Below are positions 5,174-39,895 of a stretch of DNA of 64,000 nt, piece after piece. The stretch is taken from the sequence record NC_047884.1. One strand, given 5' to 3'. The stretch is from Escherichia phage saus132. The notes beneath the pieces are model-generated. The model searched no databases and was not told the origin of the DNA. It was given only the letters and a program-made list of their open reading frames with translations. Position 1 is the first letter of the stretch. Each line of letters opens with the position of its first letter. A program made the translations under genes and the position numbers.

Positions 5174-5184
5174 CTTATATAACT

Positions 5185-5602: not shown

Positions 5603-5679
5603 TGGTAGGGGTGGTGGGATTCGAACCCACAAAACCTGAATTTTAAGTCCAGTACCTATGCCAATTCGATTACACCCCC
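5603..5679 (-). tRNA. tRNA with anticodon UAA (Leu-decoding) but short variable loop (type I)
   Basis: Acceptor GGGGGTG/CACCCCT, A73, anticodon arm CTGGA-CTTAAAA-TTCAG, T arm GTGGG-TTCGAAT-CCCAC, CCA encoded. Confidence 0.55.
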
Positions 5680-5687
5680 ATGTAATC

Positions 5688-6041
5688 TTAGCGAATCTCT
5701 AAACCCTGGAAATATCGAGGGAATGGAGAGCCAACTTCAAAATTGATGCCCCAGTTAAGTTCAACGAGTTCAGATTTATTAAGATCTAGGCCATTACCTT
5801 CAAAGATATAGCCGTAAACCGCAGGGAACATAGCTGCTAGATCTTCCATATCGGAATGAGCATTGTGTTCTTCACGTAACTGCTCAAACTCTTCAAAGAA
5901 CTTTTCTAGGAAGAACTCAGGTACGATGAACGTTACCACATCAGTAGAATCATCAGTACGATACACCGTAGCTTGGAACAAGCCAACACCTAAAAGGTTT
6001 ATTGCCGGAGTAGTAAAAATATCCATCTTAACCTCGCTCAA
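5688..6041 (-). CDS. hypothetical protein (117 aa)
   Basis: ORF; no recognisable motif. Confidence 0.45.
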   Translation of the reverse strand: MSEVKMDIFTTPAINLLGVGLFQATVYRTDDSTDVVTFIVPEFFLEKFFEEFEQLREEHNAHSDMEDLAAMFPAVYGYIFEGNGLDLNKSELVELNWGINFEVGSPFPRYFQGLEIR

Positions 6042-6213
6042 TGTCTAGAGAAATACCACATTCAGGATTAATACCAGAACCATTACAATATGTACAAACG
6101 TATGTATTATACCGTGTATCACCGGGTTCAGCATCGTTCCACTCACCTACTCCGAAGCATTTTGGGCAGGCACACTCTTCTAGCTCTTGCTTGAGTTCTT
6201 GAAATTTGGACAT
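6028..6213 (-). CDS. small zinc-finger protein (61 aa)
   Basis: CPKCFGVGEW and CTYCNGSG resemble DnaJ-type CxxCxGxG zinc finger repeats. Confidence 0.45.
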   Translation of the reverse strand: MSKFQELKQELEECACPKCFGVGEWNDAEPGDTRYNTYVCTYCNGSGINPECGISLDIERG

Positions 6214-6221
6214 ATAGTCTC

Positions 6222-6410
6222 CTAGTTAATTACTTTTGAGGCTTCTAAAGCATTGACGTAGTAAACGTCTTCTACTTTATACATATAGTCTACTACTTTG
6301 TCCATAGCATGTAGTTCAGATGTAGCCTTTACTAGTCTGTACCCTTGTTTAAACTCGTCCGAATGTTCTCTATCTTGTGCAAATTTAACAGAAACTATGA
6401 ATAATTCCAT
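6222..6410 (-). CDS. hypothetical protein (62 aa)
   Basis: ORF; no recognisable motif. Confidence 0.4.
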   Translation of the reverse strand: MELFIVSVKFAQDREHSDEFKQGYRLVKATSELHAMDKVVDYMYKVEDVYYVNALEASKVIN

Positions 6411-6429
6411 TAGTTGTCCTTATTTAATT

Positions 6430-6507
6430 TGGTGGCTCCCGGAGGATTCGAACCTACCTACCTTTCGCTTATGAGGCGACGGCTCATACCAAATGAGCTT
6501 GAGAACC
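6430..6507 (-). tRNA. tRNA with CAU anticodon (Met or Ile2), second copy
   Basis: Acceptor GGTTCTC/GGGAGCC, D stem GCTC/GAGC, anticodon arm GTCGC-CTCATAA-GCGAA, T loop TTCGAAT, CCA encoded. Confidence 0.6.
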
Positions 6508-6512
6508 AAATT

Positions 6513-6606
6513 TGGAGGAAGATGCCAGATTCGAACTGGCACACCGTGTCTCCACAGCTACTGGCTGTTTAGCAAACAGCTCCCTTACCTTTAGGGTTAA
6601 TCTTCC
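6513..6606 (-). tRNA. tRNA-Ser (GCU), long variable arm
   Basis: Acceptor GGAAGAT/ATCTTCC, anticodon arm GCTGT-TTGCTAA-ACAGC, long variable arm, T arm GCCAG-TTCGAAT-CTGGC, 94 nt with CCA. Confidence 0.8.
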
Positions 6607-6622
6607 AAATTTATGAATATAT

Positions 6623-6650
6623 TATATTAGAAATTTAGCTTCATGGCAAG
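6623..6650 (-). promoter_or_regulatory. promoter driving tRNA-Ser and tRNA(CAU)
   Basis: Minus strand -10 TATAAT plus conserved UTR-like sequence; -35 TTGCCA at suboptimal spacing. Confidence 0.45.
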
Positions 6651-7028
6651 AAAATTTTTCAAGTTTTCTGTATTCATTTCATCTAAATCCATGAGGGAAG
6701 TAAACCCATTTAGTTTTTTAGCAAAATTCTCACCAGCAGAATCATTATCGCCTACGGCTACTACTTTAAAAGGTTGTAATTTTAGCTGCTTTAGCAATGC
6801 TTTGCTAGGGGAAGATCCTAGCATTGCTAGTGCGGGATATCCCGCGTTGTGTAGTGCCACAGCTTTAAATACAGATTCTGCAACTAATACTAGGTCTTCA
6901 TTACCTGTAAGAGTTTCTAAACCCCATAGACATTGAGTAGAAGAATGCGTAAAATATTTAGCTTCAGAAGGACATTTTCCATGACCTTTAGCTGCACTAG
7001 GGTTATATGTTTGATATCCACGTAACAT
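6627..7028 (-). CDS. Toprim-domain protein (133 aa from first ATG); frame stays open upstream to an in-frame TAA at 7113-7115 that follows a 10-codon ATG-initiated leader
   Basis: Toprim-like Glu (LVLVAESVF) and DxD (VVAVGDNDSAGE) motifs; promoter and strong SD lie upstream of the ATG at 7143, not of the ATG at 7028. Confidence 0.5.
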   Translation of the reverse strand: MLRGYQTYNPSAAKGHGKCPSEAKYFTHSSTQCLWGLETLTGNEDLVLVAESVFKAVALHNAGYPALAMLGSSPSKALLKQLKLQPFKVVAVGDNDSAGENFAKKLNGFTSLMDLDEMNTENLKNFLAMKLNF

Positions 7029-7176
7029 GCCAGAGAAATCATACAGTGGAACTGTTAACCATCCATGTGGAGAGAGCCAACAGTGATACTTATCACTATC
7101 AAAGCCCCTAGATTAAAGATGTTGTTTTAACTCGTCAACAGTCATATATGACTCCTATCTATAATTTATAGAATAT

Positions 7177-7205
7177 ATTATATAGAAAATTTCGGCATTA
7201 AGCAA
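7177..7205 (-). promoter_or_regulatory. early promoter cassette upstream of Toprim-gene leader
   Basis: Minus strand -35 TTGCTT, 17 bp, -10 TATAAT. Confidence 0.6.
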
Positions 7206-7213
7206 GTGAAATT

Positions 7214-7510
7214 TTACTGAACACTGCACTGATACACTTGTTTGATACGTGTCACTGACTTCTTAGTTGGATTGATAGAAGAACCTTGCCACCAACGTGA
7301 TTCTGAGCTGAGAACAGCACCAGGAACAGCTTGTTCTTTTGGCAGAACAATATCAAAACATTGCTCACCCATATTATCTTTAATGTGTGACCAAATATCC
7401 AAAGTAAATCGTTCTAGCTTATTACAAACTTGAACTTGACAAAGTTCCTGTTGTGGAGCAGCAAATACAGAAGTAGATACTAGAGTCAATGCAAGTACAA
7501 TGCGTTTCAT
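7214..7510 (-). CDS. small secreted protein (98 aa) with cleavable signal peptide
   Basis: MKRIVLALTLVSTSVFAAPQQ signal-like N-terminus; start moved to ATG after SD GAGAGAGG (track start is a TTG inside the UTR). Confidence 0.5.
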   Translation of the reverse strand: MKRIVLALTLVSTSVFAAPQQELCQVQVCNKLERFTLDIWSHIKDNMGEQCFDIVLPKEQAVPGAVLSSESRWWQGSSINPTKKSVTRIKQVYQCSVQ

Positions 7511-7540
7511 ATTTGATTCCTCTCTCAAATTTATAAATAT

Positions 7541-7569
7541 ATTATACAGAAATTTTCTATATTAAGCAA
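7541..7569 (-). promoter_or_regulatory. early promoter cassette
   Basis: Minus strand -35 TTGCTT, 17 bp, -10 TATAAT, then ATATATTTATAAATTTGAGAGAGG UTR with SD. Confidence 0.65.
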
Positions 7570-7616
7570 GTGAAAATTTCTGTATAATAGCCCTCTAAGC
7601 GAGGGCTATAACTACT

Positions 7617-8309
7617 TTATTTGTTAACGCGTACAAAGTATCCTTTATAGGCTCCCATAATAGAGTTACCTAAGAATACTAGCCACATTGCTAGGATTGC
7701 ATAAGATGCACCTGTAGATTGAGCAGTTACAAGCCAAATGTATACAGTACCAATGTTAATAGCAATCCAGATCAGCCATTGTTCAGCATATTGTTTGACC
7801 ATAAGCCACATAGCAATCACACTACCAACCGCAGTAAATGCGTCAAGCATTGGGAATGGATCAGCGGTAGTAGCAAGGAAGCTGCCGTAACCTAAAGTAG
7901 CTACTGCTAGAATCCCTAGAGTCAGCAGAGCTTGGGCTTTAGTCAGAACCTTAGTTGGAACATCTGGCAGATTACTTGGCTTATTTTTATGCCATAAGTA
8001 CATTCCATAAAACTGCATAGGAACGTAGTATAGCAGGTTTAGTGCAGCGTTACCATAAAGATCTGCGTTTAAAGCTGTAATACCATATGTAAGAACACCC
8101 ACTAAGCCCCAAATATAGTTGGAAACACGTCCTTTTGCAACCAGAATAACACAAACCACATTGGTTATTGCAGTAGCCCAATCTAGAGCTGTACCATTAT
8201 AGTTTGCTAAACTAATGAAGACAACCGCTATGAACAGCCACAGATATTCCAGAGGTTTCCAGTTTTTAAAGTCATTTACGAGATAGTTAGTCATATTAAA
8301 ACTCTCCAA
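7617..8309 (-). CDS. pnuC: PnuC-like nicotinamide riboside transporter (230 aa)
   Basis: Size and multi-helix hydrophobic profile typical of PnuC; directly downstream of and overlapping the NadR-like gene. Confidence 0.65.
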   Translation of the reverse strand: MESFNMTNYLVNDFKNWKPLEYLWLFIAVVFISLANYNGTALDWATAITNVVCVILVAKGRVSNYIWGLVGVLTYGITALNADLYGNAALNLLYYVPMQFYGMYLWHKNKPSNLPDVPTKVLTKAQALLTLGILAVATLGYGSFLATTADPFPMLDAFTAVGSVIAMWLMVKQYAEQWLIWIAINIGTVYIWLVTAQSTGASYAILAMWLVFLGNSIMGAYKGYFVRVNK

Positions 8310-9351
8310 CGTTAAAGTGATGAATCAGCCAGTCTACTGCGTTTACTGCTTCGTCCATACGAACTTTGTAGTCCGGGGAGTCGATGTAAACAGTACGCCC
8401 TTCAGGGAACTGATTTGGAAATTCTTTCTTCATCTGCTCGAACAGTTCAGAAGTAATTGAACGATCGGAGTTAATACGTAAACCATCATCTACCCACTTG
8501 ACAGTAGGCGCTAGAACAATTACTAAATCGTAATGTTCTTCTTTTGCAATTGCTGTAACCACAGGGTTCTTACTATGTTCATAAAGTCTGTGGTAGAACT
8601 CAGTAATAAAAGCATTTGTATCCACAAACATGATCTTATTTGCAGTACGTTCTGCTTCAAACTCTAGCTCTTTGTGTCTGAACGCAATTTTACTATAGTC
8701 TTCGCTGGTAAGCAGATTTTCGTTACCAACTAGATCAACTTCACAATACGTTCGGCCATATTCTTCTACCCACGAAGTGTTGTATAGCTTCGCAAGGTAT
8801 TTTGTTAAAGTAGTCTTTCCTGAGCTTTCAGTCCCAATGATTACAACCTTACGCACGTAATCTTTACGAACTACGCTAGGAAGAAACTCCCAATACTTCA
8901 TAAGATCATTACGAATCATTGTAGCTGAGATTGGAACACGAGTCCGATCAGAATCTACAATATAATGACCAAACTTCGGCAGATATTTCTTATATTCTGC
9001 ATCATAGTCTAGTTCGCTAGAGAAAATGGTGATCTCAGGCAAATGTCCGTAATTTTCATTAAGGATTCTAGCATATTCCGGCCAACCATTCGGATATTCA
9101 GGAATATCATCTTCAATAGTGTACTCTACCGAAATGTGCTCAATATCCGCGTAAGTTTGTTCTAACCAACGAAGTCGATTCTTTAACTGTAATACTTCCT
9201 GATCACGTGTGTTCTGCTTATCCAACCAACGATTATCATGACTAACTACAACAATAACTCGTTCACACATAGTTGCTGCTGTGTTTATTAGGTTAATATG
9301 ACCACGCGTTAATGGTGCGAACTTACCAATTACTAGACCAGTCTTAATCAT
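8296..9351 (-). CDS. nadR: NadR-like bifunctional NMN adenylyltransferase / ribosylnicotinamide kinase
   Basis: N-terminal GKFAPLTRGH nucleotidyltransferase motif; C-terminal P-loop GTESSGKTTL; start taken at ATG after SD, not the track start inside the promoter. Confidence 0.75.
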   Translation of the reverse strand: MIKTGLVIGKFAPLTRGHINLINTAATMCERVIVVVSHDNRWLDKQNTRDQEVLQLKNRLRWLEQTYADIEHISVEYTIEDDIPEYPNGWPEYARILNENYGHLPEITIFSSELDYDAEYKKYLPKFGHYIVDSDRTRVPISATMIRNDLMKYWEFLPSVVRKDYVRKVVIIGTESSGKTTLTKYLAKLYNTSWVEEYGRTYCEVDLVGNENLLTSEDYSKIAFRHKELEFEAERTANKIMFVDTNAFITEFYHRLYEHSKNPVVTAIAKEEHYDLVIVLAPTVKWVDDGLRINSDRSITSELFEQMKKEFPNQFPEGRTVYIDSPDYKVRMDEAVNAVDWLIHHFNVGEF

Positions 9352-9381
9352 ATTTGATTCCTCTCTCAAATTTATAAATAT

Positions 9382-9410
9382 ATTATACAGAGAATTTAGC
9401 ATTCAAGCAA
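9382..9410 (-). promoter_or_regulatory. early promoter cassette for nadR-pnuC operon
   Basis: 29-nt block identical to the cassette at 7541; -35 TTGCTT, 17 bp, -10 TATAAT. Confidence 0.65.
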
Positions 9411-9562
9411 TCGAATTTTTTAACTTTTTAGTGGAAAAAATCTCAAGGCATTTAGTGGTAGCACGTTGTTGCTACAATAATAGTATATGATTCTAAAGAA
9501 TTAAAGAATTAAATACTAAAGACCTTAGTTGAATAACTTATGGGCTTTTCTTTTGCCTTAAA

Positions 9563-9601
9563 TACAGAAAAGCCCGCGCTCTCGGAGGAAACGCGGGCTT
9601 A
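9563..9601 (-). terminator. rho-independent terminator after SPFH gene
   Basis: GC-rich hairpin AAGCCCGCG...CGCGGGCTT then U-run on minus strand. Confidence 0.7.
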
Positions 9602-9623
9602 TTTCGAAGATTACGTGTAACTA

Positions 9624-10568
9624 TTACTTATTACGCATATCCATAATCATCTGGCCATCATAACCAGTACCTACAACAGTCTGAGGAACGCCACCCTGAT
9701 ATTTTTCAGCGCGTTTCATATCAACTTCCAGCTGTTTCCAGCGAATCATCTCTGGAGTGATGGTACGCTGCAGAGCGGTGTTAGCTTCAGCTTCTTTCTT
9801 AGCCGCATACAGTTTAGCATCTGCGTCACGTTCGTTAGCTACTGCCATATTTTCACGAGCAGAACGATCAGCCTCAGCTTGCTTAACTTTCTGCTGTGCT
9901 TCTTGTTCAACACGAGCTAGTTCAGCTTTTGCAGCGTTAACTTGTTCTTCACGAACTTTGGTGTTTTGTACCTGTTCCATGATTACCGGTGGCAGAGTAA
10001 TATCCTGAAGGAATACTTGCTTAACGGTGTAGCCATAAGGACGCGCATACTCTTCTACTTCTTGCTGAATAGCGGTTTGCAGTTGAGCCTGAATCTTAGC
10101 GTCGAACAGATCTTGTGCTTTTGGTACAGACTTACCAAACTCACGAATCGTAGACAGCATCTTCTCTTCAACGTACTTGTTCAGAGCTTGATCCTGAGTA
10201 CCTGCGTTAACACGGTTCATAGGAGCTTTAGCACCATCAAACTGCAACATAACGGTAATGTCAACTGTAGACTTAAACTTATCCTGGCTAGGAACCTGAA
10301 GTTTATCCAGTTTCATAGAAATATCTTTCGTACTAAAAGTATCAAAAGAGGCGAATGGGTTGACAATATGGAACCCCGGCAATACAGGATTAGGACTAAC
10401 TTTACCCAGGAAAGTCTGAGTTTTAACCGTACCGTCCTGAACAACTGTATAGGAATTGAGAGCCAGAATAAGAGCGCCAAGACCAACTACAGCACCAACA
10501 CCCCAACGTTTAATAGTACGAATTACTTTTTGATCGGAAGTCAGTTCTTTAGTGTTTTTAGTAAACAT
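9624..10568 (-). CDS. SPFH/band-7 (HflK/C, prohibitin-like) membrane protein
   Basis: N-terminal TM helix, central SPFH-like region, C-terminal Ala/Glu/Gln-rich coiled coil; rho-independent terminator downstream. Confidence 0.6.
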   Translation of the reverse strand: MFTKNTKELTSDQKVIRTIKRWGVGAVVGLGALILALNSYTVVQDGTVKTQTFLGKVSPNPVLPGFHIVNPFASFDTFSTKDISMKLDKLQVPSQDKFKSTVDITVMLQFDGAKAPMNRVNAGTQDQALNKYVEEKMLSTIREFGKSVPKAQDLFDAKIQAQLQTAIQQEVEEYARPYGYTVKQVFLQDITLPPVIMEQVQNTKVREEQVNAAKAELARVEQEAQQKVKQAEADRSARENMAVANERDADAKLYAAKKEAEANTALQRTITPEMIRWKQLEVDMKRAEKYQGGVPQTVVGTGYDGQMIMDMRNK

Positions 10569-10579
10569 ATATTTCCTTA

Positions 10580-10780
10580 TTATTTAGAAGAGTTAGCTAC
10601 TACAGTTACTTTAGTTGCAGAAATAAACAGGCTAGCATCCACAGCAAATTCAGGAGCTTTGATATCTCCGTTATGAAATATGACTATACCGGAGACTACT
10701 TCAAATGCTAGCGCTGTAACATCGGTGGTATTTACTTGTGAATGTTCACCTACTACTTTTACTATATATCGTGTTTTCAC
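10580..10780 (-). CDS. hypothetical protein (66 aa)
   Basis: Short ORF between SPFH gene and tRNA-Arg. Confidence 0.35.
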   Translation of the reverse strand: MKTRYIVKVVGEHSQVNTTDVTALAFEVVSGIVIFHNGDIKAPEFAVDASLFISATKVTVVANSSK

Positions 10781-10806
10781 TTTATTTTCCTAGCAGTTAA
10801 TAAAAT

Positions 10807-10881
10807 TGGCCGAGGTGACAGGATTCGAACCTGCATAAAGGAATTTAGAAGACTCCTGCCTATCCCTTAGACTACACCCCG
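10807..10881 (-). tRNA. tRNA-Arg (UCU)
   Basis: Acceptor CGGGGTG/CACCTCG, anticodon arm GGAGT-CTTCTAA-ATTCC, T arm GCAGG-TTCGAAT-CCTGT, CCA encoded. Confidence 0.7.
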
Positions 10882-11740
10882 TTTAGGTATTTTTAAGAAC
10901 TCTTATAAAAGCTCTTAAAGATACCCGACGGTAGGTAGGGTCAGCCCCCTCAGATTAAGCTCTGCAGCCCTTCCGTCAGACAATATCTTCCAGTTTAAGT
11001 CAGGGTGACTTTGTGGTTATGTTCTCCGTATGTGAAGAACTCGGTTAGGCTTAGGTCATGACTCCCAGCCTACTGCTGCCGCTCAACAGGAATTATCGCG
11101 AATTACCTGTACTATTGGGCACCATTAGTGACATCTCTCATGTCAGCGTTTCCCACTCTCATATTCACGCGGTCTGTTAGAATCGCACCTCCGATTTTCG
11201 ATGCGAAGCTGGATGCCTAGTCTCAGGTTAAACGGGGCACACACTAGGCAGTGATCCCGAGTTCCGAGTTTGGTTGAGGCCGTCAGGTTTCCTCGTGGTT
11301 TAGCTGTTTCGATTCTAACCTAATACTGATCAGGTGGCGTACCTCCTGAACTGTCATAGTATGTACTCCAGCAGCGAATGCTTATCCGGTATAAGCCCGA
11401 GTTATCTGATTCTTTCCGACCGCAGGATTCGAACCTGCATCTTCCACCAGTTACGGTTTGATATTACCGTTTATACTAGGACGGCAGTGTTATCACATAA
11501 GTCAGTTCGACACCCCACTAACATAAACTAGAGAAGAGTTTACGAGATTTCGGGACAGCTCCCGAGTTTTCCGCAGATTTTCAGTTCCCTATCAATAGCA
11601 ATAAGCGTTAGCTCGTAGCCTCTCTCAGAGTACTTACTAGTCTCCAACTCACCGACTCTATTCAGTGGAATAGCTATCCTAGTAGGAATCACTAAACTCA
11701 CTCAGCGTAATCGGCTCGCTGTTCTCTAATTTATGAATCT

Positions 11741-24451: not shown

Positions 24452-25213
24452 TTACACCTTCCCCATATCCTTAAAGATATCGTAGAATGCTTTAGACTCT
24501 GGTGAGCGAACGTTGTCGATCAGTTCGATCATAGAGAAAGGAGAGTTTTCGTACTTCTCATAGACTTCCATAAGAAGTGCTAGACCTGAATCACCCTTGA
24601 TGTCTTTCTGAGCTATATCTCCACAGATAATTAGACGACAATCTTGTCCGACACGAGTCAAGAGACAGATCATTGCTTCAACGGAGATATTCTGAGCTTC
24701 ATCGACAATTACATAGGAGTTGTTGAAAGTTCGGCCACGGGCATGTTCGATAGCCAGGAATTTGATTTTCTGACGTTCGACATATCCTTTGTAGGCGTGA
24801 TCACCGATTGCCCATTTCATGCCATCGGCTATTGGTTCCAACCAAGGCTCTAGCTTTTCTGCTAGATCACCTGGGAGCATACCAAGAGATTTACCTAGAG
24901 GTTCGTTCGGACGCACGAGGATCACTTGCTCAATATCTGAGTGAATGTCTACGAGTTCCTGAGCTGCAAGAACGGACGGAATAAAGGTTTTACCAGTACC
25001 TGGTTCACCGATACCCACAGTCACTGTGTTGTTCTTGATCATATTGATATATGATTTTTGCTCACGGTTTTTACCAACTAGGGATTTAGCAACTGGATTG
25101 GCGTAATCACCAGAGAAATCTGCTTGAATTACGTTACTCTCATACTTGTTGCCACGCTTTCTTGAACCATTGCGGTTCTCTCTTTTTTGACGTGCTTTTC
25201 CCATAAATAACAC
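24452..25213 (-). CDS. phoH: PhoH-like ATPase
   Basis: Walker A GEPGTGKTF and Walker B VIVDEAQN. Confidence 0.85.
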   Translation of the reverse strand: MLFMGKARQKRENRNGSRKRGNKYESNVIQADFSGDYANPVAKSLVGKNREQKSYINMIKNNTVTVGIGEPGTGKTFIPSVLAAQELVDIHSDIEQVILVRPNEPLGKSLGMLPGDLAEKLEPWLEPIADGMKWAIGDHAYKGYVERQKIKFLAIEHARGRTFNNSYVIVDEAQNISVEAMICLLTRVGQDCRLIICGDIAQKDIKGDSGLALLMEVYEKYENSPFSMIELIDNVRSPESKAFYDIFKDMGKV

Positions 25214-27436: not shown

Positions 27437-27470
27437 CAGCCAGGTTGCTAGTCGACCTGGCTTTTATTTT
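27437..27470 (+). terminator. rho-independent terminator after nrdD
   Basis: Hairpin AGCCAGGT...ACCTGGCT then TTTTATTTT. Confidence 0.7.
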
Positions 27471-27518: not shown

Positions 27519-28205
27519 ATGGTACGAAGGAAGTTAGATAAAGACACTATCAATAAAGATTTAGAGCCTAGAAGAATTAAGCTAATAAGTGAGTATTCTG
27601 GAATCCTTAATAAAGGCACATTCATATGTAGTGTAGGTCATACATGGGAAGCTACTGTTAATAATGTAAGGAATAGCAAATCTGGCTGTCCAATATGCGC
27701 AGGTACTTTTAAACTTACTAAAGATTCGGTAAATGAAGGGTTACGTAGTAGGGGTATTACTCTTATTGGAGAGTATAAAAATAATGCTACTAAAACTCTT
27801 TTTGAATGTGAGCATGGGCATAGGTGGGAAGCCACAGTAGGCAATGTAAAGAATAAAAATTCTGGGTGTCCTGTGTGCGATACTGATTGGAATACCCCTG
27901 GTTTTATATACATTATGTGTAGTAGTATGGGAACTAAAATAGGAATTAGTATCTCTCCTGAAAGACGGTGGAAAGAGATAGTTAAAAGCTCCAATATACT
28001 AGATTTATATATTTTTGGTGTCTATTCAATAGATTCTGGTACCAAATCTAAAAGTAGGTCTATCGAGAAACAGACTCATGAATATTTTTCAGAATATAGA
28101 TTAAAGTATACAGGATTTGCTGGATGTACTGAATTCTTTGATATATCTCCCATAGCCGTAGAAAAGCACTTAATTAATAATGGGTGTATAAAGGTAGAAA
28201 AATAA
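27519..28205 (+). CDS. zinc-ribbon repeat protein with C-terminal T5orf172 (GIY-YIG-like) domain
   Basis: Two repeats CxxGHxWEATVxNVxNxxSGCPxC, then GFIYIMCSSMGTKIGIS. Confidence 0.5.
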   Translation: MVRRKLDKDTINKDLEPRRIKLISEYSGILNKGTFICSVGHTWEATVNNVRNSKSGCPICAGTFKLTKDSVNEGLRSRGITLIGEYKNNATKTLFECEHGHRWEATVGNVKNKNSGCPVCDTDWNTPGFIYIMCSSMGTKIGISISPERRWKEIVKSSNILDLYIFGVYSIDSGTKSKSRSIEKQTHEYFSEYRLKYTGFAGCTEFFDISPIAVEKHLINNGCIKVEK

Positions 28206-28830: not shown

Positions 28831-29044
28831 AAATGTTAGTCTTATTGATCTGAATAAGCTCAATCAAGAGTTTCAGGGAGTTTTAATGAAGCACTGGGAA
28901 ACTGGTTATAAGGATGGTGTTGAATCCTGTGCTACTATGCTAGAAGTTCTTGCTGATAACCTAGTGGAGAAAGGCAATAAAGAATTAGCTGAGCTGTTAG
29001 ACAGTATTGGGCAAAACTTTAGAGAACAGGTGAAAAATGCGTAG
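28799..29044 (+). CDS. hypothetical protein (81 aa)
   Basis: ORF. Confidence 0.4.
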   Translation: MAFSSQKLPGENVSLIDLNKLNQEFQGVLMKHWETGYKDGVESCATMLEVLADNLVEKGNKELAELLDSIGQNFREQVKNA

Positions 29045-29888
29045 ACTAATCGTTGTTAGTGGTGCAGGTTTGAGTGTAGATAGTGGTGTTCGTGCTTTCC
29101 GTACTGATACTGCTAGTGGGAAATCCTTGTGGGATGAGTACGATCTAGAGGAAGTATGTAGCTTGCCTAACTTTGAAGCTGGCTTCCGTCGCTTCTGTGG
29201 TGAAGATGATCCTAACTACTTCAGTGCTCGTTTCCCTGGCATTGATGAAGATGGTAACGATCTGTATCTCAAGACTCATGAGTTCTACAACATGCGTCGT
29301 CAGGAATTACAGACTGTTGAGCCTAACATTGCCCATCTGCGAATTGCAGAATGGTTCCAGCGTTATGGTGCGGATAGCGTGAAGAACTTCACTACTAACG
29401 TTGATGACCTTCTGGAGCGCGCTGGTATCCCTCGTGATGAAATCATCCATGCTCACGGATACTTGAAAGAGGTGATCTATCGTCGGGGTCGCAATCAAAT
29501 CATCGAAGATGTTGGATACACTGCAATTGTTCCTGAAGATTACGAATGGGTAAAACCAAACGTGGTGTTCTTTGGTGAAACAGCTCCGTGGTACATGGGT
29601 CAGATCAACCTGTTTGATACGCTTACTAGCAATGATATGGTTATTGTGGTGGGTTGTAGCAACCAAGTTATCAACTTCAACTGGGAATTATTCCCTGCTG
29701 TATGTCGTGGAACTAAGATGATGGTTGTTAACCCTCAAGTTCGTTATGATGAACAGCTTGAGTATGAGAAACGTGGTGTTACTGTATGGCGGGCTGGAGC
29801 TGCCGAAGTTTTTGGTAACAAGAATTTCATTGGTCAAGTAGAAGCCTTTATGGAAGGAACTATTTATGCACCGCAAGAGCATGTGTGA
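29037..29888 (+). CDS. SIR2-like NAD-binding protein (283 aa)
   Basis: VVSGAGLSVDSGVRAFR NAD-binding motif and IHAHGY catalytic His region; no clear CxxC...CxxC zinc ribbon. Confidence 0.6.
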   Translation: MRRLIVVSGAGLSVDSGVRAFRTDTASGKSLWDEYDLEEVCSLPNFEAGFRRFCGEDDPNYFSARFPGIDEDGNDLYLKTHEFYNMRRQELQTVEPNIAHLRIAEWFQRYGADSVKNFTTNVDDLLERAGIPRDEIIHAHGYLKEVIYRRGRNQIIEDVGYTAIVPEDYEWVKPNVVFFGETAPWYMGQINLFDTLTSNDMVIVVGCSNQVINFNWELFPAVCRGTKMMVVNPQVRYDEQLEYEKRGVTVWRAGAAEVFGNKNFIGQVEAFMEGTIYAPQEHV

Positions 29889-30048: not shown

Positions 30049-30214
30049 GGGTATCTGGAAGGGTCTAGTATGGTTTGTCAACCTAATTGGTATGATTACC
30101 ATTTATTCTCTGTTCCTATCTGTTATGTGGGGTAAAGGTGAGCTGAAGGTTCCGGTTCCTTTTACTGATGAAGTTAAAGTCTGGACGTGGGATGCTACTG
30201 GTGGAAATAAGTAA
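30029..30214 (+). CDS. small membrane protein (61 aa)
   Basis: ATG after SD AAGGAGGGAG; hydrophobic core. Confidence 0.4.
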   Translation: MVKKIFKGIWKGLVWFVNLIGMITIYSLFLSVMWGKGELKVPVPFTDEVKVWTWDATGGNK

Positions 30215-30707
30215 TACTCCTGTGATTTTCCTGGATATTGATGGGGTACTCAATTCGAGCATCTCTCACCATCATGCTCTAGACAGTGAAAAGCTGTTCT
30301 TTGGCAGTGATTGGGTTTATAAGCCATTACTCCAGGTTTTTCAGAACTTTCTTAAACCCTCCCCAATAATGATTGTTGGGGTCTCTTCATGGTTTTCTGT
30401 ACGAAATGAAATGGAGAACGTTCAGATTATGACCGGACTCGGTTTGATCGATCGTTTCCTTGGTACAACAGATTTTACTGGAGGTGGTTTATATCGGGGT
30501 AATTCTGTTTTACGTTTCGTCGAAAAACATAAGCTCAAGCATTGGTGTGTCTTAGACGATGCTGGTGCTATGATGTATCAATTTCCTACTGTTATTGTAA
30601 ATGGCAGGACTGGAGTAAACCTTCAAGATTTAAATGCTATAAGCTATATGCTGGAATTTAGTCCAGATCTTGAAATGTGTAAGGCTCTTCAGAAACTTAA
30701 GGTATAA
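30168..30707 (+). CDS. HAD-superfamily phosphatase-like protein
   Basis: N-terminal VIFLDIDGVLN (DxDG) motif; start may be ATG at 30192. Confidence 0.5.
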   Translation: MKLKSGRGMLLVEISNTPVIFLDIDGVLNSSISHHHALDSEKLFFGSDWVYKPLLQVFQNFLKPSPIMIVGVSSWFSVRNEMENVQIMTGLGLIDRFLGTTDFTGGGLYRGNSVLRFVEKHKLKHWCVLDDAGAMMYQFPTVIVNGRTGVNLQDLNAISYMLEFSPDLEMCKALQKLKV

Positions 30708-30709: not shown

Positions 30710-31138
30710 ATGTTCAATAATATTTTCATGAAAGAGGTAAATCCTATGCTCCTCAACTTCTGGCGTTCTCTCCCTAATGGTATGTATAATGAAACCATCA
30801 ATCTGCTTAAGATTTGGTGTGAGAATAATGATATCTTCTTATCCTTTAAAGGCCCACTAGAGGAAGCTCCATGTATTGGAGTTAGTGTGGATTTAGGTGA
30901 GGGAGTAGAAGAGATTGTAGACTGGAAAGAACTCGATGAAATGGGTCTGGTTTTTGCCTTAAATCATAAGCTGTTTATGCCTGCAAATCACCGTCTTATT
31001 GTAAATTATCGCACTGGTGAAGCTCCTGCTTTCCAGGTAAATGAACGTGAGGGCTGGTCATATTCGCCCGAGGAAGTAAATGAGGGGATTCAGAAACTTC
31101 GTCGTTTCGGGTATATGATCCCAGGTTTAACTGCTTAA
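30710..31138 (+). CDS. hypothetical protein (142 aa), paralog of next gene
   Basis: Shares FALNxxxF...ETGExP and LxRxGxxxPGL motifs with 31148-31543. Confidence 0.5.
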   Translation: MFNNIFMKEVNPMLLNFWRSLPNGMYNETINLLKIWCENNDIFLSFKGPLEEAPCIGVSVDLGEGVEEIVDWKELDEMGLVFALNHKLFMPANHRLIVNYRTGEAPAFQVNEREGWSYSPEEVNEGIQKLRRFGYMIPGLTA

Positions 31139-31147
31139 GGAGGCAGA

Positions 31148-31543
31148 ATGGAACAAGTATTTTGGCGTCAGATAGATCCTAGTTTGGTAGAGCGTGCTGA
31201 GGGGCTCCTTGCACGTTGGTTGGGGGTTGACAAGGTTAGTGTAACATTTCCGTTTACTTCTGTAACAGACCCTAGTGTAGGTGTCTTTGTGGACGAAGAT
31301 GAAGATGATGGTTGGGAAGCTGACTGGAATGAATTGTCCAGTATGGGCTTGATTGTTGCCCTCAACTTCTCTATATTCCATCCACGTGGCTTAGCCATTA
31401 CACGTGACCCCGAAACTGGTGAATCCCCTTATCTTTTGCAAGTAGAAGATGATATTTGGGAGTACACCGAAGATATTCTCGAAGAAGCTAAAGGTCAATT
31501 AAATCGCATTGGGATCTATGTTCCAGGCCTAAATGATGATTGA
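31148..31543 (+). CDS. hypothetical protein (131 aa), paralog of previous gene
   Basis: Tandem paralog; SD AAGGAGG. Confidence 0.5.
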   Translation: MEQVFWRQIDPSLVERAEGLLARWLGVDKVSVTFPFTSVTDPSVGVFVDEDEDDGWEADWNELSSMGLIVALNFSIFHPRGLAITRDPETGESPYLLQVEDDIWEYTEDILEEAKGQLNRIGIYVPGLNDD

Positions 31544-31634
31544 TTTTCATTAGTCCAATCCTGATTACCGAGTCATTTTGGCTCGGTTTTCTCTGTGCTC
31601 AAAGACACTGATAGCACCTTCGGAAAAATTTTAC

Positions 31635-37754: not shown

Positions 37755-37949
37755 ATGGCAATAACACTTCCAAAGATTCAAGCAAAACTTAATTTGCTCT
37801 CCATAGCAAGAATCAATTACCAGGATAGTATCGGCACTCCAAACCAGAAAGCGTACAAAGATGCGTGGTTGAAAGAAGCTGCTGATTTAGCTGGTATGGC
37901 TGCGCAGTATAGTAAAGAACTCAAAATGGAAATCGCAGATGATGAATAA
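37755..37949 (+). CDS. hypothetical protein (64 aa)
   Basis: ATG directly after upstream TAA, SD GAGGT 9 nt upstream. Confidence 0.4.
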   Translation: MAITLPKIQAKLNLLSIARINYQDSIGTPNQKAYKDAWLKEAADLAGMAAQYSKELKMEIADDE

Positions 37950-38913
37950 TGTAAAAGACTTTATTAAACGTTGTCAAGAAGCGTACTACCAGGGAATGAG
38001 TCTTATTTCCGATGAAGAATATGATCGTCTGATTAAAAGATTCCCACTAGAGGAAGAAATCGGACCGAAAGGTGATATCCCTCATTTGTATCGTATGTAT
38101 TCTTTGCAGAAAGTCTATTACGATCGTGGTGATAAAGCTCCATTCAACCCACTTGGTCAGGTTGAAACTGATAAGTTAGATGGTTGTGCGATTTCTCTAT
38201 TATATATTAATGGTGAATTTATTCAAGCGTTAACTCGTGGTAACGGTATTCTAGGGAATGATGTAACGCATAATGTTAAAATGCTGAACATCCCTAAAAC
38301 TATCTCCCAAAAAGTTCCAACTCAAATCACTGGTGAAGTTCTCATCACTAAAGAAGTAGAGAACAAACGTAACTATGCTTCCGGTGCTATTAACTTGAAA
38401 GATAGTGATGATTTCATGCAACGTATTGGTGAAGGTGGTTTAATCTTCGTTGCATATGGTATCCAGTGTTCAGCGGAAACAGTCGGTATTACAGAAGCCT
38501 ATTTAAAAGATATGCTTTGGCTAGAGAATGAGAACTTCTTGACAGTTGTTAATGTTCGTTCCTTCTTTAAGTGGATTCCGACGGATGGTAAAGTTGTTCG
38601 TATTAATGATAACAACAAATTCTTCCGTGAAGGTTGGACTAATAAATTTCCTCGCGGTGCATTTGCTATTAAAGAGGATGAAGAAGGCGAAATTACCACA
38701 CTTGTTAAAGTTGAATGGCAAGTAGGGGCTTCTGGTAAAGTAACTCCAGTTGGTTATTTCGAACCGGTGATTATTGATGATGCCACAATCGTTAAAGCAA
38801 CTCTTAATAACGTTGATTATATTAACGCTCTCGATTTAGAGATCGGTTGCCAGATTCGAGTGATTCGTGCTGGTGGTGTAATCCCTTGTATAGTAGAGCG
38901 AGTATACGACTAA
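37939..38913 (+). CDS. NAD-dependent DNA ligase, adenylation-domain part
   Basis: KxDG adenylation motif (VETDKLDGCAIS). Confidence 0.75.
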   Translation: MMNNVKDFIKRCQEAYYQGMSLISDEEYDRLIKRFPLEEEIGPKGDIPHLYRMYSLQKVYYDRGDKAPFNPLGQVETDKLDGCAISLLYINGEFIQALTRGNGILGNDVTHNVKMLNIPKTISQKVPTQITGEVLITKEVENKRNYASGAINLKDSDDFMQRIGEGGLIFVAYGIQCSAETVGITEAYLKDMLWLENENFLTVVNVRSFFKWIPTDGKVVRINDNNKFFREGWTNKFPRGAFAIKEDEEGEITTLVKVEWQVGASGKVTPVGYFEPVIIDDATIVKATLNNVDYINALDLEIGCQIRVIRAGGVIPCIVERVYD

Positions 38914-38963
38914 TTCGTAACCCTTTGCTACCCGTTTACCATGTCGGAATTATAAAGTGGTTA

Positions 38964-38992
38964 TTGACATTTTCGCCGCTTAGGTATATACT
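38964..38992 (+). promoter_or_regulatory. promoter in the gap between the two ligase ORFs
   Basis: -35 TTGACA, 17 bp, -10 TATACT. Confidence 0.55.
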
Positions 38993-39056
38993 ATTATCAT
39001 TCAGTTGAGGGATAGAAAGTTATGGCGAGGGTAAGCAAAGTTAGTTAAAATTGTAG

Positions 39057-39085
39057 TTGCTAAATGCTTAAATACTTGCTATAAT
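39057..39085 (+). promoter_or_regulatory. promoter immediately upstream of ligase C-terminal ORF
   Basis: -35 TTGCTA, 17 bp, -10 TATAAT, conserved UTR. Confidence 0.6.
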
Positions 39086-39115
39086 ATTTATATAAATTGA
39101 TAAGGAAGAAATTTG

Positions 39116-39895
39116 ATGAAAATCGAAATTCCAACACAATGTCCCTCTTGTGGTTCTAAGCTAGATCTTGTCAACGGGCAATTATTCTGTAGGAATAAGT
39201 CCAACTGTCCAGCACAATCAAGTAAGTTAATCGAGAACTTCTGCACAAAAATGAAGTTAAAGGGCTTTGGCCCGAAAACTATTGAGAAGCTGGAACTGAC
39301 TAAGATCTCAGAACTGTTTTACCTGACCGAAGAAGATTTGGTCGGAGCTGTGGGTAGCAAGGTTGCCGCTAAGTTGATTAGCGAGTTAAATACTAAGGTT
39401 CGCGGAGACATTGACTTTGGTTCGGTTCTCGGTTCTTTAGGAATTCCTCTTATTGGAGAGGTTGCAGCAAAGAAACTGTCCCAAAATTGCACTAGCTTCC
39501 ACGATGTGAAGGCTGACGGCAAGGCTGGAGAAAATTACAAAACCTGGCTAAATTCCCCACAAGGCAAGGATGTTATTGAATTACCATGGAAATTCTCAAC
39601 TGGTATTCGAGGTACTAAAGCTGATATCATCATTACGGATGATTTAGTTGCCCAGCCAAATGGAATCACGATCTGTATTACCGGATCTTTGCAAGATTTT
39701 GCAAATCGAACGGATGCAACAAACTATTTAGAAAGTCTAGGATATACGGTTAAGAAATCCGTTACCAAAGACGTCAAATACCTAATCTGTGAGGATGAAT
39801 CAAAACGTTCTTCCTCATCTTATAAGAAAGCCGAAACGAATGGGATAGAAATCCTGTCGATTAAAGAACTATTGGAGAAAAATAATAATGTCTAA
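39116..39895 (+). CDS. NAD-dependent DNA ligase, C-terminal part (zinc finger, HhH, BRCT-like)
   Basis: Cys4 site CPSCGSKL...CRNKSNCP; own promoter and SD upstream. Confidence 0.7.
   Translation: MKIEIPTQCPSCGSKLDLVNGQLFCRNKSNCPAQSSKLIENFCTKMKLKGFGPKTIEKLELTKISELFYLTEEDLVGAVGSKVAAKLISELNTKVRGDIDFGSVLGSLGIPLIGEVAAKKLSQNCTSFHDVKADGKAGENYKTWLNSPQGKDVIELPWKFSTGIRGTKADIIITDDLVAQPNGITICITGSLQDFANRTDATNYLESLGYTVKKSVTKDVKYLICEDESKRSSSSYKKAETNGIEILSIKELLEKNNNV

What the first reader, a model, noticed from the sequence alone, without database searches (positions are those of the whole stretch)
29037..29888. SIR2-like protein lacking an obvious zinc ribbon
Seen in sequence: Rossmann NAD-binding signature (SGAGLSVDSGVRAFR) and catalytic-His region (IHAHGY) but no clear CxxC...CxxC zinc module. 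Established knowledge: SIR2 folds act as deacylases, ADP-ribosyltransferases or NADases, and defence systems use SIR2 NADases. Inference: could modify host proteins using NAD+ or modulate NAD+ pools; its coexistence with the NAD+ salvage genes is notable.
Basis: partly seen in the sequence, partly recalled or inferred. Interest (0 to 1): 0.5.

Follow-up and report, generated by a model that had tools for sequence, protein, structure and literature searches.

The report
Zinc-less sirtuin of a T5-like phage
This is the already-annotated Sir2-like early gene of a T5-like phage (the ortholog of T5.102): a real CobB/SIRT5-type NAD+-using enzyme that has lost its zinc-binding cysteines and whose substrate has never been tested.

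Summary
ORF 29037-29888 (+), 283 aa, is a real sirtuin (Pfam SIR2 E=1e-21; AF2 pLDDT 87; best solved match E. coli CobB). NAD-binding and catalytic residues are intact (GAGxS, F21/R22, N121, D123, H140, FFGE). There is no Cys where CobB binds zinc, and no CxxC in any of 53 clade members.

The window is 100% identical to T5-like phage chee130_1 (Epseptimavirus). The gene is the ortholog of T5.102, annotated "Sir2" since T5 was sequenced, and has homologs in 978 phage records.

Loss of the zinc ligands was published for vibriophage homologs (2016). A Tpt1-like RNA-repair role for this phage sirtuin clade, including the T5-type pairing with a HAD "Swiss-army-knife" phosphatase, was proposed in 2022. 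No experiment was found.

My best reading is a CobB/SIRT5-like lysine deacylase (0.4). The main rival is RNA 2'-phosphate removal (0.3).

The NAD+ salvage genes in the window are the characterised NARP3 counter-defence module. They are 20 kb away and not obligately coupled. Already known; modest interest.

The parts
29037..29888 (+). [quoted passage not shown]
   Evidence: ORF; 100% identical to MF431736.1 61037-61888; Pfam SIR2, PHROG 2162; AF2 pLDDT 87.2, pTM 0.86; CobB TM 0.83; dN/dS about 0.1
29058..29102 (+). NAD-binding motif, residues 8-22 (SGAGLSVDSGVRAFR); G9, A10, G11, S13, S16, F21 and R22 are invariant in the clade
29286..29300 (+). Residues 84-88 (YNMRR): Y84 and R87 align with CobB Y92/R95 (SIRT5 Y102/R105), the class III pair that binds an anionic acyl group. 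Y84, R87 and R88 are invariant.
29391..29405 (+). Residues 119-123 (TTNVD), the counterpart of the sirtuin TQNID motif. N121 and D123 are kept; the Gln is replaced by an invariant Thr (T120).
29448..29459 (+). Residues 138-141 (HAHG); H140 aligns with the CobB catalytic His147 and is invariant
29457..29567 (+). Residues 141-177: Cys-free beta hairpin plus loop that stands where the zinc-binding module sits in canonical sirtuins
29568..29579 (+). Residues 178-181 (FFGE), the FGE loop that lines the acyl-lysine tunnel in deacylase sirtuins. F178, F179 and E181 are invariant.
30192..30707 (+). Downstream co-oriented gene in the same gene chain: HAD phosphatase of the 'Swiss Army Knife RNA repair' type (HAD_SAK_2), ortholog of T5.105
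   Evidence: Pfam PF18143 E=3e-17. Present next to the sirtuin in 3 of 5 T5-like sirtuin groups and in 463 phage records. Deleted together with the sirtuin in DT57C.
30710..31543 (+). Two tandem DUF7415 genes (30710-31138 and 31148-31543), orthologs of T5.106/T5.107, last genes of the unit
   Evidence: Pfam PF24187 E=9e-37 and 3e-28; present in all 5 T5-like sirtuin groups
27438..27462 (+). Terminator-like hairpin after nrdD: upstream boundary of the transcription unit that holds the sirtuin
   Evidence: 10-bp stem plus T run; T5 has an annotated terminator at the same place
31567..31587 (+). Terminator-like hairpin after the second DUF7415 gene: downstream boundary of the unit
   Evidence: T5 has an annotated terminator after T5.107
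7617..9351 (-). Context only, not shown to be a functional part: PnuC-like nicotinamide riboside transporter (7617-8294) and NadR-like NR kinase/NMN adenylyltransferase (8296-9351). This is NARP3, the 'NAD+ salvage genes' of the finding.
   Evidence: annotation; NadR 99.7% identical to that of phage TrudiRoth/Bas30, whose pair was characterised in PMC13464706

Best explanation
The gene encodes a stand-alone, catalytically intact sirtuin. It descends from the CobB/SIRT5 (class III) branch and has lost the four zinc-ligand cysteines. It is made from a chain of overlapping or closely spaced early genes, between two terminators, in a T5-like phage.

Proposed mechanism:
1. NAD+ binds the Rossmann site (G9-A10-G11-x-S13, F21/R22, N232).
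2. An oxygen of an anionic acceptor, held by Y84/R87(/R88), attacks C1' of the nicotinamide ribose, and nicotinamide leaves.
3. His140 then activates the ribose 2'-OH for the second step.

The acceptor I consider most likely is an acyl-lysine on host or phage proteins: acetyl, or an acidic succinyl/malonyl-type group. That would make the enzyme a CobB/SIRT5-like deacylase that strips acyl marks from proteins early in infection, consuming one NAD+ per event. NAD+ could be kept available by the phage's own NARP3 pathway.

Shown here: gene, fold, motif conservation, loss of the zinc ligands, purifying selection, operon layout.
Inferred: enzymatic activity, the acceptor, the biological benefit, and any link to NARP3.
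For: - Best NCBIfam matches are the 'NAD-dependent protein deacylase' families.
- Every residue needed for two-step sirtuin chemistry is invariant in 53 clade members: G9, A10, G11, S13, F21, R22, N121, D123, H140, F178, F179, E181, G206, S208, N232.
- The class III Y-x-x-R pair (CobB Y92/R95) is invariant as Y84/R87.
- The FGE loop that lines the acyl-lysine tunnel is kept.
- The clade is acidic (median pI 5.05, charge -13), like the CobB catalytic domain (pI 5.4, -10.5) and unlike the RNA enzyme KptA (pI 9.4, +6).
- The only conserved basic residues are ones CobB also has, so no new nucleic-acid-binding surface is evident.
- dN/dS is 0.07-0.11.
- Sirtuin-bearing lineages repeatedly also carry NAD+ synthesis genes: NARP3 here, an NAMPT/PRPS-like pair in Mydovirus, NadV plus NadM in Serratia phage BF.
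Against: - No activity has been measured for any member (no experimental paper found).
- It scores far below the CobB equivalog cut-offs (74.6 bits against 320).
- The clade has specific changes at substrate or cofactor positions. The Gln of TQNID is an invariant Thr. CobB's V-Y-P peptide-staple loop is an invariant V-I-N-F-N-W. The zinc module is gone. There is an insert at residues 47-78 and an extra C-terminal helical segment.
- Gene neighbours point to RNA-end processing rather than protein modification.
- The hosts already have CobB.
- The gene is dispensable in the lab: DT57C carries only a remnant.
Confidence: 0.4

Rival explanations
1. RNA 2'-phosphate remover: a functional analogue, not a homologue, of Tpt1/KptA. 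The acceptor would be a 2'-phosphate on RNA left after healing of a 2',3'-cyclic phosphate end, for example on tRNA cut by a host anticodon nuclease. The phosphate oxygen attacks NAD+ C1'. His140 then activates the ribose 2'-OH to displace the phosphate as ADP-ribose 1'',2''-cyclic phosphate. The neighbouring HAD_SAK_2 phosphatase would process RNA ends or the by-product. This is the proposal of Iyer, Burroughs, Anantharaman and Aravind 2022 (PMC9503650, section 3.7.3).
For: - I re-derived the neighbourhoods independently from 64 loci in 22 sirtuin groups.
- Vequintavirinae: calcineurin-like phosphoesterase, Rnl1-type RNA ligase, P-loop kinase, cREC (cyclic-phosphate processing domain), sirtuin, DNA ligase, MazG-like.
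- Serratia phage BF: a 2H-like ORF with two H-x-T/S motifs two genes upstream (motifs read by eye in the ORF translation; not confirmed by a domain search), and a Nudix-cREC fusion immediately downstream.
- A 608-kb jumbo contig: an Rnl1 RNA ligase two genes upstream.
- T5-like phages: HAD_SAK_2.
- The chemistry is parallel to deacylation and also needs the conserved His.
- The invariant Y84/R87/R88 could hold a phosphate.
- The clade-specific changes (Q to T, loss of zinc, new V-I-N-F-N-W loop) fit a changed substrate.
- No T5-like record appears among the KptA-bearing phage records listed (40 of 98) or in the summary by organism name.
- T5-like phages invest heavily in tRNAs: 30 tRNA genes are annotated in the record, 17 to 19 of them inside the window depending on whether the two that straddle its left edge are counted.
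Against: - This is guilt by association only. Phage early regions bundle nucleotide-metabolism genes regardless of pathway.
- T5-like genomes show no RNA ligase in the 80 kb inspected.
- HAD_SAK_2 is missing next to the sirtuin in 2 of 5 T5-like groups and in a diverged T5-like contig.
- Stephanstirmvirinae and the P0124 lineage show no recognisable RNA-repair neighbour.
- The protein is strongly acidic and has gained no conserved basic residues over CobB.
- Genes flanking KptA in three jumbo phages share no family with the sirtuin's flanks except NrdB, so no like-for-like displacement was seen.
- The 'RNA repair' labels of HAD_SAK_2 and cREC are themselves predictions.
Confidence: 0.3
2. Mono-ADP-ribosyltransferase. 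The enzyme stops after the first step and leaves ADP-ribose on a host protein (as SirTM, SIRT4 or SIRT6 can) or on a nucleic-acid end, to hijack or inactivate a host factor. This would be functionally like T4 Alt/ModA/ModB but with a sirtuin fold.
For: - The NAD+ site is intact.
- Phages are known to ADP-ribosylate host proteins (established knowledge on T4; PMC9503650).
- The divergent peptide-binding loop could reflect a non-acyl-lysine target.
Against: - No macrodomain partner is found among the nine flanking ORFs or in other lineages.
- The catalytic His, which serves the second (2'-OH) step, is invariant. From memory, SirTM enzymes have replaced it; I did not verify this here.
- Similarity is higher to deacylases than to SirTM.
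Confidence: 0.1
3. Free NADase or NAD+-pool modulator, or an enzyme that destroys an NAD+-derived immune signal. The sirtuin would hydrolyse NAD+ or a related small molecule to shut off the host or blunt signalling defences, with NARP3 rebalancing the pool.
For: - Defence SIR2 domains that lack a zinc ribbon are NADases (established knowledge; PMC9503650).
- The phage also makes NAD+.
Against: - No PADLOC match.
- The acyl-lysine tunnel residues and the Y-x-x-R pair are invariant, which a plain NADase would not need.
- Destroying NAD+ would work against the phage's own NAD+-dependent DNA ligase (window 37942-39895) and against NARP3.
- The sirtuin is widespread in phages without NARP3.
Confidence: 0.07

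Closest known systems
Phage T5 gene T5.102 (YP_006930.1, 'Sir2 (NAD-dependent deacetylase)') and PHROG 2162
   Same: Orthologous position: nrdD, small ORFs, sirtuin, two small ORFs, HAD (T5.105), two DUF7415 genes (T5.106/107), terminator. About 52% identity to Tequintavirus versions and 96-98% to other Epseptimavirus versions. PHROG 2162 E=8e-108 over the full length.
   Different: An extra T5orf172/GIY-YIG-like ORF (27519-28205) sits between nrdD and the unit here. This allele has a longer insert at residues 47-78 than T5.
E. coli CobB (PDB 1s5p, 6rxj); human and zebrafish SIRT5 (class III sirtuins)
   Same: Same fold (TM 0.83 normalised to CobB; 27% identity). Same NAD+ and catalytic residues: Y84=Y92, R87=R95, N121=N130, D123=D132, H140=H147, FGE loop. 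Acidic catalytic domain.
   Different: No zinc ligands (CobB Cys155/174/176/177). Gln129 replaced by Thr120. V-Y-P loop replaced by V-I-N-F-N-W. Insert at 47-78 and an extra C-terminal helical segment. No basic N-terminal extension. Far below the NCBIfam CobB cut-offs.
Sir2/CobB of KVP40-like vibriophages phiSt2/phiGrn1 (Skliros et al. 2016, PMC5107563)
   Same: Phage-encoded CobB-like sirtuin for which absence of the zinc ligand was already reported; that paper lists the T5 homolog. Co-occurs with phage NAD+ synthesis genes. 31.7% identity (H82).
   Different: Distant clade member in a T4-like jumbo vibriophage. Its proposed role (deacetylation and activation of host acetyl-CoA synthetase) rests on modelling and transcript profiles only.
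'Distinct clade of phage sirtuins' predicted to act in RNA repair (Iyer, Burroughs, Anantharaman, Aravind 2022, PMC9503650, section 3.7.3)
   Same: This gene belongs to that clade. It is homologous to the named exemplar, Serratia phage BF AQW88637.1 (35.6% identity, E=4e-33; H83). It shows their neighbourhood type 3, the T5-like phage SP15 sirtuin plus HAD 'Swiss-army-knife' phosphatase (SP15 carries the same HAD gene, H162).
   Different: Nothing differs in kind. I add that HAD linkage is not universal in T5-like phages, that the protein is acidic with no added basic residues, and that Q to T tracks zinc loss.
Defence-associated SIR2 NADases (ThsA, DSR1/2, SIR2-HerA, SIR2-APAZ, Avs5 SIR2)
   Same: SIR2 superfamily Rossmann core; lack of a Cys4 zinc ribbon.
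Tpt1/KptA RNA 2'-phosphotransferase
   Same: NAD+-consuming two-step chemistry on an anionic oxygen is formally parallel. Phage KptA genes exist (98 records).
   Different: Unrelated fold (an ART-type fold, by established knowledge, against a Rossmann sirtuin). KptA is basic (pI 9.4) and this protein is acidic (pI 4.8). No shared gene context was found.

Membership tests
SIR2 superfamily (Pfam PF02146) | Significant match to the family model above the curated cut-off | tested here: met
   78.2 bits against a 24-bit cut-off, E=9.9e-22
SIR2 superfamily (Pfam PF02146) | Rossmann fold with GAGxS, the Asn/Asp of the (T)QNID motif, and the catalytic His of the HG motif | tested here: met
   G9, A10, G11, S13, N121, D123 and H140 are invariant in 53 sequences. 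H/N/D are kept in 137 of 141 representatives. The fold is confirmed.
Canonical deacylase sirtuins (classes I-IV, U) | Cys4 zinc-binding module (CxxC...CxxC) in the small domain | tested here: not met
   No Cys in residues 141-177; no CxxC in 53 of 53 clade members. The top 20 or so representative clusters all lack it. The CobB Cys positions are unmatched.
Canonical deacylase sirtuins (classes I-IV, U) | Gln of the TQNID motif | tested here: not met
   Invariant Thr120
Class III sirtuins (CobB/SIRT5) | Tyr-x-x-Arg pair that recognises acidic acyl groups | tested here: met
   Y84/R87 align with CobB Y92/R95 and are invariant
CobB equivalog (NCBIfam NF040867 / NF001755) | Score above the curated equivalog cut-off | tested here: not met
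   74.6 bits against 320, and 73.3 against 318
Class III sirtuins (CobB/SIRT5) | NAD+-dependent lysine deacetylase/desuccinylase activity | not testable with these tools
   Needs an enzyme assay; no published assay was found
Phage sirtuin clade of Iyer et al. 2022 (PHROG 2162) | Homology to the named exemplars (Serratia phage BF AQW88637.1, phage rV5 type, phage SP15 type) | tested here: met
   tblastn: BF 35.6% identity, E=4e-33; Vequintavirus 46-47%; T5-like 51-98%. PHROG 2162 over the full length.
Phage sirtuin clade of Iyer et al. 2022 (PHROG 2162) | Conserved neighbourhood with RNA-end-processing genes (HAD_SAK in the T5-like type) | tested here: met
   HAD_SAK_2 lies 304 nt downstream in the same gene chain. 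However, it is present in only 3 of 5 T5-like sirtuin groups.
Phage sirtuin clade of Iyer et al. 2022 (PHROG 2162) | RNA 2'-phosphate-directed ADP-ribosyl transfer | not testable with these tools
   A prediction only
Defence-associated SIR2 NADases | Match to defence-system SIR2 models | tested here: not met
   PADLOC: 0 families at E<=1
Defence-associated SIR2 NADases | Fusion to, or an operon with, a sensor or partner (SLOG, HerA, pAgo/APAZ, STAND, TIR) | tested here: not met
   A single-domain 283-aa protein. The nine flanking ORFs show none of these domains.
SirTM (macrodomain-linked ADP-ribosylating sirtuins) | Adjacent or fused macrodomain | tested here: not met
   No Macro domain in the flanking ORFs here or in the other lineages examined

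The most novel reading that the evidence does not exclude
The phage zinc-less sirtuin clade does not act on proteins at all. Instead it would be the first sirtuin that works on RNA. It would use NAD+ to remove 2'-phosphates (or to cap phosphorylated ends) during repair of tRNAs cut by host anticodon nucleases, and it would work together with the HAD_SAK_2, cREC and Rnl1 neighbours. This was proposed on paper in 2022 and never tested. My evidence neither excludes it nor strengthens it much beyond confirming the neighbourhoods.
Probability: 0.3. Interest if true: 0.75.

Novelty: already known. Interest (0 to 1): 0.3.

Why it matters
Phage T5 is a classic model phage, and this sirtuin family occurs in nearly a thousand sequenced phage genomes: T5-like, rV5-like, phAPEC8-like, KVP40-like and jumbo phages. 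Its substrate is nevertheless unknown.

NAD+ is now recognised as a central battleground between phages and bacterial defences, and the same genome carries the NARP3 NAD+-rebuilding module. Knowing what a phage-encoded NAD+ consumer does would complete that picture.

If it is a deacylase, phages reset host protein acylation. If it acts on RNA 2'-phosphates, it would be a new chemistry for the sirtuin fold and a new arm of phage tRNA repair.

The finding itself adds nothing beyond published annotation and published hypotheses. It mainly points to a cheap, well-defined experiment.

Tried and rejected
1. Defence-type SIR2 NADase. Rejected as a family assignment: no PADLOC hit, the lowest structural ranks among sirtuin hits, and no partner domains.

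2. Obligate coupling with the NAD+ salvage genes. Rejected. NARP3-type NadR at >=90% identity occurs in about 203 records, against 978 records with the sirtuin. T5 has the sirtuin in the same synteny. The two loci are 20 kb apart on opposite strands.

3. 'Analogous displacement' test for the RNA hypothesis. I took E. coli kptA and found 98 phage records with KptA. I then compared the ORFs flanking KptA in three jumbo phages with all sirtuin-flanking ORFs. Only NrdB was shared, so this test gave no support either way.

4. Surface-charge argument. The clade is acidic, like the CobB catalytic domain and unlike KptA. This is weak evidence against RNA binding, not decisive. I could not inspect the model's coordinates for local electrostatics.

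5. Literature search for any biochemical or genetic study of a phage sirtuin. None was found. 'phage-encoded sirtuin' and 'T5.102' gave zero hits; other searches returned only genome reports, the 2016 in-silico study and the 2022 survey.

6. Pseudogene or decaying gene. Rejected for this phage (dN/dS about 0.1, all motifs intact). A remnant does exist in DT57C.

7. More distant zinc-less relatives (P0124, P0125, P0128, P0129, P0136). Their contexts were phage-like or uninformative and added no new functional partner.
Full report
WHAT THE WINDOW IS

The ORF region is 100% identical over its full 852 bases to five deposited genomes of T5-like phages from food. One is MF431736.1 'Bacteriophage T5-like chee130_1' (Demerecviridae, Epseptimavirus), positions 61037-61888. 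Window coordinates therefore equal record coordinates minus 32000.

[quoted passage not shown] It is mentioned as such in the paper that describes these phages (PMC5816814).

THE OBSERVATION

The ORF 29037..29888 (+), 283 aa, is real. Both quoted motifs are present (residues 8-22 and 137-142).

- Pfam SIR2 scores 78 bits against a 24-bit cut-off (E=1e-21).
- PHROG 2162 'Sir2' matches end to end (E=8e-108).
- The best solved relative by sequence is E. coli CobB (E=1.2e-16).
- Against four close relatives, dN/dS is 0.07-0.11, so the gene is under purifying selection.

The absence of a zinc ribbon is also real.

- The protein's four cysteines are C41, C54, C207 and C223. None lies in residues 141-177, where the zinc module should be.
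- None of 53 clade members has any CxxC. The only invariant cysteine is C41.
- The zinc ligands of E. coli CobB (Cys155, 174, 176, 177) have no cysteine counterpart in the alignment.

STRUCTURE

AlphaFold2 with a 53-sequence alignment gives a confident model (mean pLDDT 87.2, pTM 0.86). The only disordered stretch is residues 23-31, which is the flexible cofactor-binding loop. A confident two-stranded hairpin (141-150 and 153-158) stands in place of the zinc module.

PADLOC finds nothing. So this is a deacylase-type sirtuin that has lost its zinc ligands. It is not a defence-type SIR2.

RESIDUE-LEVEL ANATOMY

These residues are invariant in the 53-member alignment: G9, A10, G11, S13, S16, F21, R22, Y84, R87, R88, N121, D123, H140, F178, F179, E181, G206, S208 and N232.

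Mapping onto E. coli CobB: Y84=Y92, R87=R95, N121=N130, D123=D132, H140=H147.

Y92/R95 of CobB (Y102/R105 of SIRT5) is the class III pair that binds the carboxylate of succinyl- or malonyl-lysine. That is established knowledge, not tested here.

Clade-specific departures:

- The Gln of TQNID is an invariant Thr120.
- CobB's V-Y-P loop is an invariant V-I-N-F-N-W.
- There is an insert at residues 47-78.
- There is an extra C-terminal helical segment at about residues 246-275.

Among 141 representatives from a 1.8-billion-protein search, the Q-to-T change tracks zinc loss. The counts are T with fewer than 3 Cys, 36; Q with 3 or more Cys, 75; Q with fewer than 3 Cys, 8; T with 3 or more Cys, 7. 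These counts are not phylogenetically independent.

The closest 20 or so representative clusters all lack CxxC. Canonical CxxC...CxxC proteins appear from E of about 1e-29 outward. The zinc-less state therefore defines a clade derived from CobB-like ancestors.

The protein falls far below the NCBIfam CobB equivalog cut-offs.

DISTRIBUTION

tblastn finds the protein in 978 phage records:

- T5-like phages of several genera
- Vequintavirinae (rV5, Mydovirus)
- Stephanstirmvirinae
- KVP40-like vibriophages

In T5 itself it is T5.102, in the same order: nrdD, small ORFs, sirtuin, two small ORFs, T5.105, T5.106, T5.107, terminator.

It is dispensable in the laboratory. Phage DT57C carries only a 90-aa remnant that fuses sirtuin residues 197-250 to HAD residues 135-171.

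LOCAL CONTEXT

Terminator-like hairpins at 27438-27462 and 31567-31587 bracket a run of co-oriented genes. From 28271 onward these overlap or are closely spaced.

- 27519-28205: a T5orf172/GIY-YIG-like ORF, absent from T5
- three small ORFs
- 29037-29888: the sirtuin
- two small ORFs
- 30192-30707: a HAD_SAK_2 phosphatase (Pfam E=3e-17)
- 30710-31138 and 31148-31543: two DUF7415 genes

WIDER NEIGHBOURHOODS

I fetched 59 IMG/VR loci and added five others. I called and clustered 2143 ORFs and grouped the loci into 22 sirtuin groups at 75% identity.

- T5-like phages: DUF7415 follows the sirtuin in 5 of 5 groups, and HAD_SAK_2 in 3 of 5. PhoH lies about 3 kb upstream on the other strand.
- Vequintavirinae: calcineurin-like phosphoesterase, Rnl1-type RNA ligase, P-loop kinase, cREC, sirtuin, DNA ligase, MazG-like.
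- Serratia phage BF: NadM, NadV, a 2H-like ORF, sirtuin, Nudix-cREC fusion, PhoH. The 2H assignment rests on two H-x-T/S motifs that I read by eye in the translation, not on a domain search.
- A 608-kb jumbo contig: an Rnl1 ligase two genes upstream.
- Stephanstirmvirinae: DUF7275/DUF7277 and unknown proteins.
- A more distant lineage (P0124): anti-repressor-type genes and a DNA ligase.

WHAT IS ALREADY PUBLISHED

- Skliros et al. 2016 (PMC5107563) reported the missing zinc ligand in the KVP40 and phiSt2 Sir2/CobB proteins. They proposed salt bridges instead and host acetyl-CoA synthetase deacetylation as the role. They listed the T5 homolog.
[quoted passage not shown] The types include the T5-like SP15 sirtuin plus 'Swiss-army-knife' HAD. 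They proposed a KptA/Tpt1-like removal of RNA 2'-phosphates.
- The NAD+ salvage genes of the window are PnuC at 7617-8294 and NadR at 8296-9351, both on the minus strand. NadR is 99.7% identical to that of Bas30/TrudiRoth. This pair is the NARP3 module, shown experimentally in 2026 to rebuild NAD+ against Sir2-HerA and DSR1 defences (PMC13464706).
- I found no experimental work on any phage sirtuin.

MECHANISM

Shown here: an intact NAD+ site, the catalytic His/Asn/Asp, the FGE tunnel loop and an anion-binding Tyr/Arg pair, all under selection. This argues for a working enzyme that carries out the full two-step sirtuin reaction on an anionic oxygen acceptor. A bare NADase or an inactive relic is unlikely.

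Two acceptors fit.

(a) Acyl-lysine (acetyl, or succinyl/malonyl type).
- Favoured by homology, the kept tunnel residues and the Y-x-x-R pair.
- Also favoured by an acidic charge like that of CobB's catalytic domain (pI 5.4) and unlike KptA (pI 9.4), and by the lack of any newly conserved basic residue.

(b) An RNA 2'-phosphate.
- Favoured by the recurrent RNA-end-processing neighbours in at least four lineages, and by the clade-specific remodelling of the substrate side.
- Weakened by missing partners. No RNA ligase is seen in the inspected 80 kb of this genome. HAD is absent from some T5-like groups. No RNA-repair neighbour is seen in Stephanstirmvirinae.
- A test for like-for-like replacement of KptA by the sirtuin in shared cassettes found no shared context.

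I put (a) at 0.4 and (b) at 0.3. An ADP-ribosyltransferase that stops at step one gets 0.1, and an NADase or signal-degrading role 0.07.

RELATION TO NAD+ SALVAGE

The two loci are 20 kb apart on opposite strands. NARP3-type NadR at >=90% identity occurs in about 203 records, against 978 with the sirtuin.

However, sirtuin-bearing lineages often carry some NAD+ synthesis route nearby: an NAMPT/PRPS-like pair 5 kb away in Mydovirus, and NadV plus NadM within 4 kb in phage BF. T5-like phages also use an NAD+-dependent DNA ligase (window 37942-38913 and 39116-39895). A supply-and-demand relationship is plausible but not shown.

VERDICT

The object is a known, annotated gene family whose peculiarity (no zinc ligands) and most interesting hypothesis (RNA repair) are both already in print, and its function is experimentally open. 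Novelty: already known. Interest: about 0.3, carried by the fact that a simple enzyme assay on a model-phage protein could settle a question with a potentially new sirtuin chemistry.

Noticed in passing
window 7617-9351 (-): PnuC-like nicotinamide riboside transporter plus an HTH-less NadR (NR kinase/NMN adenylyltransferase). This is the NARP3 NAD+-rebuilding counter-defence module characterised in 2026 for phage Bas30/TrudiRoth. NadR is 99.7% identical to the Bas30 protein.
   Followed up: yes
window 30192-30707 (+); T5 gene T5.105: The HAD_SAK_2 phosphatase gene is labelled 'Sir2 (NAD-dependent deacetylase)' in many RefSeq phage records, including T5.105. This is apparently because PHROG 18062, which matches only the C-terminal half of the HAD protein, carries that name. 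It is an annotation error that propagates.
   Followed up: partly
window 27519-28205 (+): A 228-aa ORF with two treble-clef zinc-finger repeats (DUF4379/CapR) and a T5orf172/MUG113 (GIY-YIG-like) domain. It is inserted between nrdD and the sirtuin unit and is absent at this position in T5. It looks like a homing-endonuclease-type mobile insert.
   Followed up: partly
window 30710-31138 and 31148-31543 (+): Two tandem paralogous DUF7415 genes (orthologs of T5.106/T5.107) follow the sirtuin/HAD pair in all five T5-like sirtuin groups. They remain in DT57C after the sirtuin and HAD were deleted. Function unknown.
   Followed up: partly
L068 (phage DT57C, NC_027356.1) 4968-5240: The 'defective sir2' ORF is a fusion remnant: sirtuin residues 197-250 joined to HAD residues 135-171. 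The sirtuin, two small ORFs and the HAD gene were therefore lost together in a viable phage.
   Followed up: yes
window 24452-25204 (-); also L008, L005, L055, L076: A PhoH-family ATPase gene lies within about 3 kb of the sirtuin in T5-like phages, Stephanstirmvirinae and Serratia phage BF (10 of 22 sirtuin groups). It was the most widely shared neighbour across lineages.
   Followed up: no
representatives P0121-P0269: Replacement of the TQNID Gln by Thr tracks loss of the zinc cysteines among CobB-like relatives. A few proteins (for example P0155 and P0159) have Thr together with 3 Cys in that region, which is fewer than a full Cys4 set. The structural or chemical reason is unexplained.
   Followed up: partly
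window 37942-38913 and 39116-39895 (+): The NAD+-dependent DNA ligase is encoded as two separate ORFs (ligA/ligB), as in T5, so the phage has at least two NAD+-consuming enzymes.
   Followed up: no
window 1-10900 (-): A dense tRNA gene array: 30 tRNA genes are annotated in the record, 17 to 19 of them inside the window depending on whether the two that straddle its left edge are counted. They are interspersed with small ORFs upstream of the NARP3 genes. GC skew changes sign near 24-25 kb, where the divergent PhoH and NrdD units meet.
   Followed up: no
phage records MG065689.1, MG065654.1, MG065652.1: Records named 'Campylobacter phage' (135-146 kb, unannotated) carry sirtuins 47-60% identical to this one and group with E. 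coli Vequintavirinae/Stephanstirmvirinae-type phages. The host labels may be wrong.
   Followed up: no
L006 (Klebsiella phage VIK251) 1-1129: A nicotinamide phosphoribosyltransferase-like gene and a ribose-phosphate pyrophosphokinase-like gene sit about 5 kb from the sirtuin and RNA ligase cluster. The pair resembles the NARP1 (Namat plus Adps) NAD+ reconstitution pathway.
   Followed up: no
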